In this document: one piece after another, positions 17,460 to 18,821 of the stretch | Layout of the letters: each line of letters starts with the position of its first letter | Position numbering within the stretch: the stretch's first letter is position 1 | Source of the DNA: an uncultured Clostridia bacterium | GTDB lineage: Bacteria; Bacillota; Clostridia; Christensenellales; Borkfalkiaceae | Direction of reading: 5' to 3' | Assembly: GCA_964383655.1 (NCBI GenBank) | Contig: CAYLIO010000001.1 | Location: 1 to 36,445 of the forward strand | Length of the DNA: 36,445 nucleotides | Notes under the pieces: generated by a model | What the model was told of the DNA's origin: nothing | The model's input: the letters and a program-made list of their open reading frames with translations, nothing else | The model's database searches: none | Position numbers and translations under genes: made by a program

Positions 17460-17488
17460 TTGGTATTTGGATTGTATGTTGCTATAAT
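17460..17488 (+). promoter_or_regulatory. Sigma-70-type promoter for the Phd-like/HipA-like operon
   Basis: TTGGTA (17460-17465), a 17-nt spacer, then TATAAT (17483-17488). Confidence 0.45.
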
Positions 17489-17504
17489 AAAAAAGAGGTC
17501 AACT

Positions 17505-17660
17505 ATGACAGAGAAAAATATATTGAACAATTTGGATTCTATAACAATGTTTAATCAAGGACAGGCTTCGAAAATTTTTTCTCGCCTACACGATGAAAAA
17601 CAAATCGTGGTATTGAAAAACAATGTGCCTACGGCAATTTTGCTGTCACCCGATATATGA
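17505..17660 (+). CDS. Phd/YefM-like antitoxin N-terminal domain; the C-terminal tail lies in the +1 frame (see findings)
   Basis: AGAGG RBS and ATG at 17505. SITMFNQGQASKIFSRLHDEKQIVVLKNNVPTAILLSPD follows the Phd/YefM N-domain pattern. It stops at 17658-17660 inside an ATATAT run. Confidence 0.6.
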   Translation: MTEKNILNNLDSITMFNQGQASKIFSRLHDEKQIVVLKNNVPTAILLSPDI

Positions 17661-17699
17661 TCGGTTGTTAAGGCTTGCGGGAAAAGGGGAGAAAAATCA

Positions 17700-18821
17700 A
17701 TGAGTTATATTTTGAAACAATATGATACCGCTTTGTTGCGATTCGATATGCAAAAAGATATCGATGGAGTATCCGCTCATATTTTATCGGTAAACGATGA
17801 ACAAAAAAACTTGTTGCCGATAGATTTGGAGCTTTCGAATTGCGGTTTGGCGAAATGGCTAAAGCGCCGCACGATTCCGAGTAATCGAGCGTATGTGCAA
17901 AATTTTCTTGCCAAACTCGGACTGAACGAAAAAGATACAAAGGGGATTATCGACTTTTGCAAAGGATTATCGCTCAACGACTGCTATTGGGTGGTTGAGG
18001 ATAATTTTAACGGAAATTTTGCGGAAAATAATTTATACGATAATCGGTTTAGTAATGTGCTTTCGCATATTGCTTTTACCGGCTACGGTAATTTTCAAAA
18101 AACTTCGTTGCGTTCATCACCGGAATTTACCACAAACGGTATGCTTGCCAAATGTTGGCGCAGAGTAGACGGCAAAATTGTTTTATATAAGTCAGGGACA
18201 GAAGGTTTTGCAAATTCGGGTAACGAGCCTTACTGCGAGTATTATGCTTGGCGGGTAGCTGAATCTATGGGAATCAACGCCGTGCAATACGGATTATCCA
18301 AATGGAAAGGAAAGTTGTGTTCTACCTGCGAGTTGTTTACAAGTAAAGAATACTCTTTTATGCCGATTGGGAATATTGTAAAAGATGGCGGAATTAAGGC
18401 GGTAATCGAATATTATAAGTCGCTTGGAGATAAATACTACGACGCTTTTATCGATATGATCGTATTCGATGCTGTTATTTTGAATACGGATCGCCACTTC
18501 GGTAATTTTGGGTTTATGGTAGATAACCAAACAAATCAAATTTGCGCCACCGCGCCTTTATTCGATCACGGTTTATCTTTGCTGACGTATGCGATGGATG
18601 ATGATTTGCAAGATTGGGAAACCTACGCCAAAACGCGCGTTCCTGCGACCTATTCGGATTTTATTGAACTTGCACAACAGTTAATGCGGCATGAGCAAAG
18701 AGAAAAGTTGCGCAGGCTGATCAATTTCAAATTCAAGAAGCATTCGAGATATAATTGGAAAGAGGAGCGCTTAGTTGCTTTATCAAAACTGATCGGATAT
18801 CGTGTTAGTTTAATTTTATGA
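17700..18821 (+). CDS. HipA-superfamily Ser/Thr kinase-like toxin
   Basis: 373 aa with GGGGAG RBS. The catalytic-loop-like LNTDRHFGNFGF and the downstream APLFDHG parallel E. coli HipA GATDGHAKNFS...TPFYDI. NGMLAK sits at the position of the GxQxK loop. Confidence 0.72.
   Translation: MSYILKQYDTALLRFDMQKDIDGVSAHILSVNDEQKNLLPIDLELSNCGLAKWLKRRTIPSNRAYVQNFLAKLGLNEKDTKGIIDFCKGLSLNDCYWVVEDNFNGNFAENNLYDNRFSNVLSHIAFTGYGNFQKTSLRSSPEFTTNGMLAKCWRRVDGKIVLYKSGTEGFANSGNEPYCEYYAWRVAESMGINAVQYGLSKWKGKLCSTCELFTSKEYSFMPIGNIVKDGGIKAVIEYYKSLGDKYYDAFIDMIVFDAVILNTDRHFGNFGFMVDNQTNQICATAPLFDHGLSLLTYAMDDDLQDWETYAKTRVPATYSDFIELAQQLMRHEQREKLRRLINFKFKKHSRYNWKEERLVALSKLIGYRVSLIL

What the first reader, a model, noticed from the sequence alone, without database searches (positions are those of the whole stretch)
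17460..18821. HipA-superfamily kinase paired with a Phd/YefM-like protein instead of a HipB-type HTH antitoxin
The 373-aa protein has HipA-like catalytic motifs (NTDRHFGNFGF, APLFDHG) but is shorter than E. coli HipA. The only upstream partner has a Phd/YefM-type N-terminal pattern (SITMFNQGQASKIF...VVLKNNVPTAILLSP), not an XRE/Cro HTH like HipB. I do not recognise this kinase/antitoxin combination. It may be a hybrid TA architecture.
Basis: partly seen in the sequence, partly recalled or inferred. Interest (0 to 1): 0.65.

Follow-up and report, generated by a model that had tools for sequence, protein, structure and literature searches.

The report
Phd-type partner on HipA-like kinase
A HipA-type protein kinase gene in a gut Clostridia chromosome really does sit behind a small Phd/YefM-type gene rather than the usual helix-turn-helix partner; the pairing is conserved in one narrow lineage, but in this window the small gene is broken by a 2-base deletion.

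Summary
ORF 17700-18821 (373 aa) is a HipA-superfamily Ser/Thr kinase. It scores just above Pfam's HipA_C cut-off, its catalytic residues are conserved, and a confident AlphaFold model matches H. pylori CtkA and full-length HipA.

The upstream ORF most likely starts at ATG 17505, not 17460. It belongs to a small Phd/YefM-type family of 65-66 aa whose intact members pass Pfam's cut-off. In 8 species-representative genomes and 23 metagenome contigs this gene lies directly before the kinase, with ATGA or TAATG stop/start overlap, and both genes are under purifying selection.

In the window the small gene has a 2-nt deletion after 17654. This removes its C-terminal helix, while the kinase stays intact.

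The wider kinase family has thousands of members and is mostly solo. Some members carry an HTH domain, fused at the N-terminus or encoded just upstream, and some lie on prophages and next to serine recombinases. The Phd-type partner is therefore a lineage-specific swap. It is not among the ten published Hip organisations.

Whether the small protein neutralises the kinase or only regulates transcription is open. Two independent broken alleles beside an intact kinase argue against strict dependence. Verdict: a new variant of a known kind, of moderate interest.

The parts
17434..17488 (+). Promoter region. It contains an AT-rich palindrome (AATTATAA/TTATAATT, 17434-17449), which is a candidate operator, followed by TTGGTA (17460), a 17-nt spacer and TG-n-TATAAT (ending 17488).
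   Evidence: Promoter scan and palindrome search. The -35/-10 elements and the upstream AT-rich block are conserved in 10 related loci. Function is inferred.
17505..17660 (+). Frameshifted Phd/YefM-type gene. As it stands it encodes 51 aa (MTEKNILNNL...LLSPDI*). An AGAGG ribosome-binding site lies at 17494-17498.
   Evidence: Orthologues are 65-66 aa and pass Pfam's PF02604 cut-off. dN/dS among orthologues is 0.02-0.14.
17654..17655 (+). Site of the 2-nt deletion (GA missing) that shifts the reading frame.
   Evidence: DNA alignments A1 and A3 against 10 related loci.
17656..17703 (+). Displaced 3' end of the Phd-type gene, in the +1 frame. It encodes YDRLLRLAGKGEKNQ and ends at a TGA that overlaps the kinase ATG (ATGA).
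   Evidence: tblastn match to residues 52-66 of the intact protein; alignment.
17700..18821 (+). HipA-superfamily Ser/Thr kinase, 373 aa. It has a HipA-like N-subdomain (residues about 1-130) and a kinase core. Candidate functional residues, assigned by me from motif correspondence with HipA: phosphate-binding loop SPEFTTNG at 140-147, K151, catalytic D264/H266/N269, and Mg-binding D289.
   Evidence: Pfam HipA_C; PADLOC PDC-M03A E 3.7e-17; CtkA by sequence, E 1.7e-7; AlphaFold pLDDT 95.9; Foldseek matches to CtkA and HipA; invariant columns of a 61-sequence alignment.

Best explanation
This is a two-gene operon. A minimal Phd/YefM-fold protein (66 aa when intact) is translationally coupled to a HipA-superfamily Ser/Thr kinase. 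The operon lies in a small accessory islet between purB and tRNA-Trp on the chromosome of an uncultured gut Clostridia bacterium.

The kinase belongs to a large, unnamed, deep branch of the HipA superfamily. Its core is closest to CtkA and to the HipI-like PDC-M03A models, and it has a HipA-type N-subdomain. Members of this branch are usually solo, or have an HTH DNA-binding module fused at the N-terminus or encoded just upstream. In one narrow lineage that place is taken by a Phd/YefM-type module, which is a partner swap.

Inferred mechanism: the Phd-type dimer binds the AT-rich palindrome at the promoter and represses the operon. Its C-terminal helix (residues about 49-64) contacts and restrains the kinase. 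When released, the kinase phosphorylates an essential target, by analogy with the aminoacyl-tRNA synthetase targets of HipA and HipT, and stops growth. That outcome would suit abortive phage defence or element stabilisation.

In this window the module is degenerate. A 2-nt deletion removes exactly that C-terminal helix, while the kinase remains intact and keeps every conserved residue.

Shown here: the gene pair, its conservation, the family assignments, the frameshift and the partner distribution. Inferred: DNA binding, neutralisation, toxicity and the target.
For: Kinase identity:
- Pfam HipA_C is above its cut-off.
- The best match among solved structures, by sequence, is CtkA.
- The AlphaFold model has pLDDT 95.9. 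Foldseek matches CtkA at E 4e-10 and full-length E. coli and Shewanella HipA at TM 0.6-0.69 over about 460 columns.
- R63, E142, G147, K151, E180, D257, R265, H266 and G271 are invariant. D264, N269 and D289 are at least 90% conserved across 61 homologues that go down to 33% identity.

Small protein:
- Intact orthologues score 34.8 bits on PF02604 (cut-off 29.8), and 24 of 24 match.
- The best PDB profile hit is the Phd/YefM-family antitoxin Rv2865, over the KNxxPxAxLxxxxEYxxL motif, but only at E 0.11.

Pairing:
- All 8 species-representative genomes with at least 84% kinase identity have the gene ending on the kinase start.
- Of 23 metagenome contigs found with the small protein, 22 have it intact, and 19 of those show kinase sequence starting at its stop (L144 ends at the stop; L146 and L150 are the kinase-broken exceptions).
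- Purifying selection acts on both genes: dN/dS 0.02-0.14 for the small gene and pN/pS 0.11-0.18 for the kinase.

Partner swap:
- 72 loci with 55-61% kinase identity lack the Phd-type gene.
- L013 and L019 have an HTH_17 ORF ending 18 nt upstream of the kinase start. P0097 and P0120 are HTH_17 fusions. P0127, P0128, P0138 and P0142 are XRE HTH fusions.

Mobile and defence context:
- 53 viral-contig loci carry a relative, and 14 loci have a serine recombinase next to the kinase.
- A PDC-M13-like cluster lies next door in the window.

Decay typical of TA modules:
- The kinase is internally deleted while the small gene is retained in L084-L088 and L146.
Against: - Two independent broken alleles of the small gene sit beside an intact kinase. 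One is the window's 2-nt deletion. The other is in L081, a 1-nt deletion in a T6 run. L081's kinase protein is identical to that of L082, where the small gene is intact. A strictly required antitoxin should not be lost this way. A second copy acting in trans (L084 has two), a sequencing error or an inactive kinase could explain it.
- Most of the kinase family has no partner at all. This suggests the kinase controls itself.
- The small protein is short. It covers Pfam profile positions 12-51 of 74, so it has little of the C-terminal toxin-binding tail of classical Phd and YefM.
- Its AlphaFold model is only moderate (pLDDT 67.6) and gave no significant structural matches.
- No interaction, toxicity or target was tested or could be tested here.
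Confidence: 0.6

Rival explanations
1. The Phd-type protein is only a transcriptional regulator of the operon, like HipB in hipBST, which autoregulates but does not neutralise. The kinase is held in check on its own, through its fused N-subdomain or autophosphorylation at the TT of the SPEFTTNG loop. On this reading the pair is not a true toxin-antitoxin couple, and loss of the small gene merely derepresses a self-limited kinase.
For: - Most family members are solo or carry only a DNA-binding HTH in cis.
- Broken small-gene alleles coexist with an intact kinase that is still under constraint.
- The small protein lacks a long C-terminal tail.
- The promoter and a palindrome upstream of it are conserved.
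- There is precedent for a non-neutralising HTH partner in hipBST and for monocistronic HipH (PMC8262856).
Against: - The tight ATGA/TAATG coupling and near-obligate co-occurrence in the clade are typical of type II TA pairs.
- The small gene is retained after kinase deletion. That fits an antitoxin kept for protection, although it is also compatible with simple decay.
- The C-terminal helix is conserved.
Confidence: 0.3
2. The frameshift in the window is a sequencing or assembly error, and the locus is in fact an intact Phd-kinase pair like those of its relatives.
For: - The deletion allele was not seen in any of 23 metagenome contigs or 8 genomes.
- The near-identical L082 is intact.
- No run holding this strain was available to check reads. 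The best runs hold only 5-6% of the sampled words.
Against: - Long housekeeping ORFs across the 36-kb window are uninterrupted: mutS 862 aa, mutL 640 aa, groEL 540 aa, plus purB and proC. The assembly is therefore not indel-prone.
- A 2-nt deletion outside a homopolymer is not a typical error.
- A second, different frameshift occurs in the sister contig L081.
Confidence: 0.2
3. The truncated gene still yields a near-full-length protein through +1 ribosomal frameshifting at ATA-TGA (17655-17660), where the in-frame stop sits exactly at the shift site, as in prfB.
For: Only the geometry supports this. The stop codon created by the deletion lies at the point where a +1 shift restores the conserved DRLLRLAGKGEKNQ reading frame.
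Against: AUA to UAU re-pairing is poor. I saw no prfB-like stimulatory element at the shift site in the sequence; this was not searched formally. The site is not conserved, because relatives have no shift.
Confidence: 0.03

Closest known systems
hipBA type II toxin-antitoxin module (E. coli K-12 HipA/HipB)
   Same: The gene order is small upstream gene then kinase, with overlapping stop and start. The kinase has the HipA fold, including N-subdomain-1, and a D-x-H-x-x-N catalytic loop plus an FD/YD Mg-binding site.
   Different: The partner is Phd/YefM-type, not an XRE HTH. Structure-based sequence identity to HipA is about 10%, and hhalign probability against E. coli HipA is only 12%. The kinase is 373 aa against 440 aa. 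The target is unknown.
HipH (YjjJ) family: monocistronic kinases with an N-terminal HTH
   Same: Many relatives of the window's kinase have the same architecture, an HTH fused to the N-terminus of the kinase, or are monocistronic.
   Different: The window's kinase has no HTH. The NCBIfam YjjJ model matches only 35 residues at E 0.014, with 14 bits against a cut-off of 401. hhalign probability is 21.6%. This is not an orthologue.
CtkA (JHP0940) of Helicobacter pylori, PDB 3AKJ
   Same: It is the best match among solved structures, both by sequence (E 1.7e-7) and by fold (E 4e-10), over the kinase core.
   Different: The Foldseek matches to CtkA span only 261-280 alignment columns of the 373-residue model, whereas the HipA matches span 450-474, so CtkA corresponds to only part of it. 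From my own knowledge, not tested here: CtkA is described as a secreted pro-inflammatory kinase with no Phd-type partner.
Clade XI Hip kinases, hipIN (PADLOC candidate PDC-M03: HipA-like kinase plus HIRAN protein)
   Same: The PDC-M03A models give the best profile scores for the kinase core (E 3.7e-17). They also belong to a defence-candidate context.
   Different: Those kinases are short (279-321 aa, no N-subdomain) and have a downstream HipS-HIRAN partner (PMC8262856; PMC13245101). Here the N-subdomain is fused, and the region downstream of the kinase holds only intergenic DNA and tRNA-Trp.
Phd/YefM antitoxins (Phd-Doc, YefM-YoeB, Rv2865-Rv2866)
   Same: Intact orthologues belong to Pfam PF02604. 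The gene is upstream and overlapping. The KNxxPxAxLLSxxEYxxL core motif is present.
   Different: It is only 65-66 aa and has an extra N-terminal extension of about 10 aa, so it has little or no C-terminal toxin-binding tail. Its partner is a HipA-type kinase rather than Doc, YoeB, RelE or ParE. The family is very narrow: 194 sequences, of which the 120 listed are all at least 80% identical to the query.

Membership tests
HipA superfamily kinase (Pfam PF07804 HipA_C) | Profile match above the curated cut-off | tested here: met
   32.8 bits against 30.5, E 7e-8, residues 161-326. The margin is narrow. It is supported by PDC-M03A at E 3.7e-17.
HipA superfamily kinase (Pfam PF07804 HipA_C) | Conserved catalytic loop (D-x-H-x-x-N) and Mg-binding Asp | tested here: met
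   N262-T-D264-R-H266-F-G-N269 and F288-D289 are invariant or at least 90% conserved in 61 homologues. They align with NSDMHAGN/YD of HipH and TDGHAKN/YD of HipA.
HipA superfamily kinase (Pfam PF07804 HipA_C) | HipA fold, including N-subdomain-1 | tested here: met
   AlphaFold pLDDT 95.9, pTM 0.92. Foldseek matches HipA entries 3fbr and 3hzi at TMq 0.68-0.69 over 450-470 columns.
HipA superfamily kinase (Pfam PF07804 HipA_C) | Ser/Thr kinase activity and growth inhibition | not testable with these tools
   Needs expression and phosphoproteomics.
hipBA module | HipB-type XRE/Cro HTH partner | tested here: not met
   The upstream ORF hits only PF02604. There is no HTH ORF next to the kinase in the window.
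HipH/YjjJ | N-terminal HTH fused to the kinase; match to the YjjJ equivalog model | tested here: not met
   The kinase starts at the HipA-like N-subdomain with no HTH. NF007297 gives 14.1 bits against a cut-off of 401.
hipIN / PDC-M03 | Short core kinase plus a downstream HipS-HIRAN protein | tested here: not met
   The kinase has an N-subdomain. The region 18822-19025 holds no credible ORF and is followed by tRNA-Trp.
Phd/YefM antitoxin (PF02604) | Profile match above the curated cut-off | tested here: inconclusive
   The window copy scores 17.4 bits as it stands and 25.1 bits read through, both below 29.8. The intact orthologue P0271 scores 34.8 bits, and 24 of 24 members match at E <= 0.01. 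The family qualifies. The window's allele alone does not.
Phd/YefM antitoxin (PF02604) | Phd/YefM fold (beta-alpha-alpha-beta-beta-alpha dimer) | tested here: inconclusive
   AlphaFold pLDDT 67.6. H18-30, E33-38, E41-46 and H49-64 are compatible, but the N-terminal strand is not modelled, and Foldseek gave no hit below E 1.
Phd/YefM antitoxin (PF02604) | C-terminal toxin-binding extension | tested here: not met
   Only 7 residues follow profile position 51 of 74. The single C-terminal helix, 49-64, is the only candidate.
Type II toxin-antitoxin pair (general) | Conserved adjacent, co-oriented, overlapping gene pair | tested here: met
   8 of 8 genomes; 19 of the 22 metagenome contigs with an intact small gene show kinase sequence starting at its stop (L144 ends at the stop; L146 and L150 are the exceptions). 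ATGA or TAATG overlap.
Type II toxin-antitoxin pair (general) | Antitoxin required for viability when the toxin is present | tested here: inconclusive
   Two independent frameshifted small-gene alleles sit next to an intact kinase, in the window and in L081. These rest on sequence only, and trans copies or errors are not excluded.

The most novel reading that the evidence does not exclude
The roughly 375-aa kinases form a new, abundant Hip family, with about 3,600 clusters at 50% identity. Most are solo and sit on prophages and mobile elements of gut Firmicutes and other phyla. They are intrinsically self-controlled and have a target different from that of HipA.

In one lineage the family has recruited a tail-less Phd/YefM fold. 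This protein would control the kinase in a way not seen for Phd/YefM proteins: either purely at the transcriptional level, or through a single short helix binding a kinase rather than a Doc or RelE-type toxin.
Probability: 0.3. Interest if true: 0.6.

Novelty: new variant of a known kind. Interest (0 to 1): 0.45.

Why it matters
Hip kinases are the textbook persistence toxins. Their published classification into ten families is defined by genetic context (PMC8262856).

A Phd/YefM-partnered organisation would add an eleventh context. It would also point to a large kinase branch, common in human and animal gut Clostridia and their prophages, that appears to lie outside that survey. That branch is only distantly related to the survey's seeds HipA and HipH, and no Phd-partnered organisation is listed there.

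The locus also offers a natural experiment on whether such partners are true antitoxins. Within one lineage there are intact pairs, alleles with only the small gene broken, and alleles with only the kinase deleted.

The practical importance is modest. Partner swapping among type II modules is well documented, and nothing here shows a new biochemical activity.

Tried and rejected
1. Checking the frameshift in raw reads. The look-up of sequencing runs returned only two chicken-gut runs holding 5-6% of the sampled words, so no reads of this strain were available and read laying was not used.

2. Fold confirmation of the small protein. The AlphaFold model was only moderate and Foldseek gave nothing below E 1. 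This is uninformative rather than negative.

3. Placing the kinase in the published Hip tree. The sequences of that tree were not available. I used indirect measures instead: profile scores against Pfam, NCBIfam, PADLOC and PDB, and hhalign against E. coli HipA and HipH. These show it is distant from HipA and HipH, and score it best against the CtkA sequence and the HipI-like PDC-M03A models.

4. The prophage KKP kinase module (PMC11341870) was checked as a possible relative. The paper does not mention HipA or CtkA, so I dropped it.

5. Phd-type partners on viral contigs: none found.

6. A second copy of the small gene in the window that could act in trans: none within the 36 kb.

8. The third large homologue search was not used. 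The small protein's family shares too few words with anything more distant: 194 candidates, all of them scored.

Full report
**1. What is in the sequence**

The upstream ORF is listed mechanically from TTG 17460. Three things place its start at ATG 17505: an AGAGG ribosome-binding site at 17494-17498, a TTGGTA-17-TGcTATAAT promoter at 17460-17488, and the start positions of all orthologues. As it stands the ORF encodes 51 aa and stops at TGA 17658-17660.

**2. The upstream gene is frameshifted**

I aligned the DNA with ten related loci. The window lacks 2 nt between 17654 and 17655: GAT--ATATGAT against GATGA[A/G]TATGAT elsewhere.

The conserved C-terminus, YDRLLRLAGKGEKNQ, continues in the +1 frame. 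It ends at a TGA at 17701-17703 that overlaps the kinase ATG.

The window otherwise carries long uninterrupted housekeeping genes: miaB-like, mutS, mutL, groEL, purB, proC and rnhA. The assembly is therefore not generally indel-prone. I could not check reads, because no run holds this strain.

**3. The kinase**

Sequence evidence:
- Pfam HipA_C scores 32.8 bits against a cut-off of 30.5.
- The NCBIfam YjjJ model gives only a 35-residue match at E 0.014.
- The PADLOC PDC-M03A models, which describe the HipA-like component of a HipA plus HIRAN candidate system (PMC13245101), score best at E 3.7e-17.
- Among solved structures, the only sequence hit is H. pylori CtkA at E 1.7e-7.

Structural evidence:
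- An AlphaFold model built from a 61-sequence alignment is very confident, with pLDDT 95.9 and pTM 0.92.
- Foldseek matches CtkA at E 4e-10.
- Foldseek also matches full-length E. coli and Shewanella HipA at TM 0.6-0.69 over about 460 columns. The protein therefore has the whole HipA fold, including the N-terminal subdomain, at about 10% identity.

Conserved residues across homologues down to 33% identity:
- Invariant: K151, E180, R265, H266 and G271, among others.
- At least 90% conserved: D264, N269 and D289.
- These correspond to the catalytic loop and Mg-binding site of HipA and HipH.

Profile comparisons with E. coli HipA and HipH give only 12% and 22% probability. This is a deep, separate branch.

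**4. The small protein**

- PhdYeFM_antitox is its only Pfam hit.
- The window's allele is below the cut-off. The intact orthologue P0271 scores 34.8 bits against 29.8, and all 24 members tested match.
- A family profile finds the Phd/YefM-family antitoxin Rv2865 as its best PDB hit, aligned over the KN..P.A.L....EY..L core, but only at E 0.11.
- The AlphaFold model is moderate, with pLDDT 67.6 and the pattern helix, two strands, C-terminal helix. Structural search was uninformative.
- The family is narrow: 194 sequences, of which the 120 listed are all at least 80% identical to the query.
- It is under strong purifying selection, with dN/dS 0.02-0.14.
- At 65-66 aa, and with an N-terminal extension of about 10 residues, it covers Pfam profile positions 12-51 of 74. 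The helix at 49-64 is therefore its only candidate toxin-binding element, and this is the part lost in the window.

**5. Survey of partners**

Where the Phd-type gene is present:
- Among 80 loci from one-genome-per-species contigs, the 8 with 84-91% kinase identity (uncultured gut Clostridia) all have the Phd-type gene ending on the kinase start, with an ATGA or TAATG overlap.
- Searching metagenomes with the small protein gave 23 human-gut contigs. 22 have it intact, and 19 of those show kinase sequence starting at its stop (L144 ends at the stop; L146 and L150 are the kinase-broken exceptions).

Where it is absent:
- The other 72 genome loci, with 55-61% kinase identity, lack it. They come from Clostridia, Bacilli, Bacteroides, Coriobacteriaceae, Beggiatoa-like and Desulfobacterales genomes.
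- Recurrent neighbours there are large serine recombinases (14 loci) and a DUF6076 protein (10 loci, mainly Ruminococcus flavefaciens genomes).
- L013 and L019 have an HTH_17 ORF ending 18 nt upstream of the kinase start.
- Other homologues carry N-terminal HTH_17 or XRE fusions. By my count from the match coordinates, about 10 of the 150 best cluster representatives have an N-terminal extension of 45 residues or more.
- 53 viral contigs carry a relative, and none carries the Phd-type gene.

The family is large: more than 7,000 sequences at 90% clustering, and 3,577 clusters at 50% identity with E < 1e-3.

**6. Decay patterns**

- The contig L081 encodes a kinase 99% identical to the window's, in the same gene context. 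It carries a different frameshift in the small gene, a 1-nt loss in a T6 run.
- L082 encodes the identical kinase protein and has the small gene intact.
- Conversely, L084-L088 and L146 keep the small gene but have lost kinase codons, roughly 8 to 287 in L084-L088 and 37 to 287 in L146. L084 also holds a second, 80% identical copy of the small gene next to an IS element.
- The window's kinase differs from P0001 at three non-conserved positions, and pN/pS is about 0.11-0.18.

**7. Interpretation**

The ten genetic organisations of the published Hip phylogeny use HTH, HipS, HipS-HIRAN, resolvase-like or Stl-like partners, and none is Phd/YefM (PMC8262856). I found no report of this pairing.

The partner distribution makes it a lineage-specific replacement of an HTH module by a Phd/YefM module. 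This is the kind of partner exchange already documented for type II systems (PMC10440598).

Whether the small protein neutralises the kinase is not shown. Tight coupling and co-occurrence favour a TA pair. Three observations favour a regulator-only role with a self-controlled kinase: the many solo relatives, the missing C-terminal tail, and two independent broken alleles beside an intact kinase. I give about 0.6 to the TA-like module reading, with the window's copy degenerate, and about 0.3 to the regulator-only reading.

**8. Context**

The operon lies in an accessory islet of about 3.5 kb between purB and tRNA-Trp. The islet also holds a four-gene cluster with DUF3990 and DUF3791 domains, which matches PADLOC candidate PDC-M13, and a truncated P-loop ATPase remnant. 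This resembles a small defence or TA islet in a chromosome.

**9. Verdict**

This is a new variant of a known kind, of moderate interest at 0.45.

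Noticed in passing
window 15855-17087 (+): Four overlapping genes: a 99-aa ORF (DUF6788 weak hit on the same gene in L081), DUF3990 (161 aa), an 83-aa ORF and DUF3791 (68 aa). They match PADLOC candidate defence system PDC-M13 A/B/C at E 1e-66 to 1e-26. The same cluster is present in L081.
   Followed up: partly
window 16969-17383 (-): An 80-aa ORF (17141-17383) overlaps the start of a 61-aa ORF (16969-17154). The 61-aa ORF begins with a Walker A motif (GVNGAGKST, weak AAA_23 hit) and then runs into the DUF3791 gene. It looks like the remnant of a second small-protein plus P-loop ATPase pair, truncated by the neighbouring cluster.
   Followed up: partly
window 19026-19100 (-) and 20768-20843 (+): tRNA-Trp lies immediately downstream of the kinase, and tRNA-Thr lies further on. 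The accessory islet at about 15.5-19.0 kb sits between purB and tRNA-Trp, which is a possible integration hotspot.
   Followed up: no
window 20942-22351 (-) and 22771-24168 (-): Two ATPase genes lie close together on the minus strand. One is AAA_14 plus DUF4143, the other ATPase_2 plus DUF234. Their function is unknown.
   Followed up: no
L084 4921-5490 and 8929-9980 (also L085, L088): A related genome carries two copies of the Phd-type gene. One is followed by an internally deleted kinase. The other, 80% identical, is followed by about 140 nt of the kinase 5' end and then, about 170 nt further on, the 83-aa and DUF3791 genes, with an rve-family IS between the two copies. This is evidence of recombination among these islet genes.
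   Followed up: partly
L045, L047, L056, L057, L059, L060, L064, L067, L072, L073: In these 10 loci, mainly Ruminococcus flavefaciens and Ruminococcus sp. genomes (L073 is an Oscillibacter MAG), the kinase homologue always follows a 383-aa DUF6076 protein on the same strand, with a gap of 71-84 nt. This is a different recurrent partner of unknown function.
   Followed up: partly
L081 about 4810-4820: An independent 1-nt deletion in a T6 run of the Phd-type gene, in a contig whose kinase protein is identical to that of L082. It could be a real mutation, phase-variable slippage or an assembly error.
   Followed up: partly
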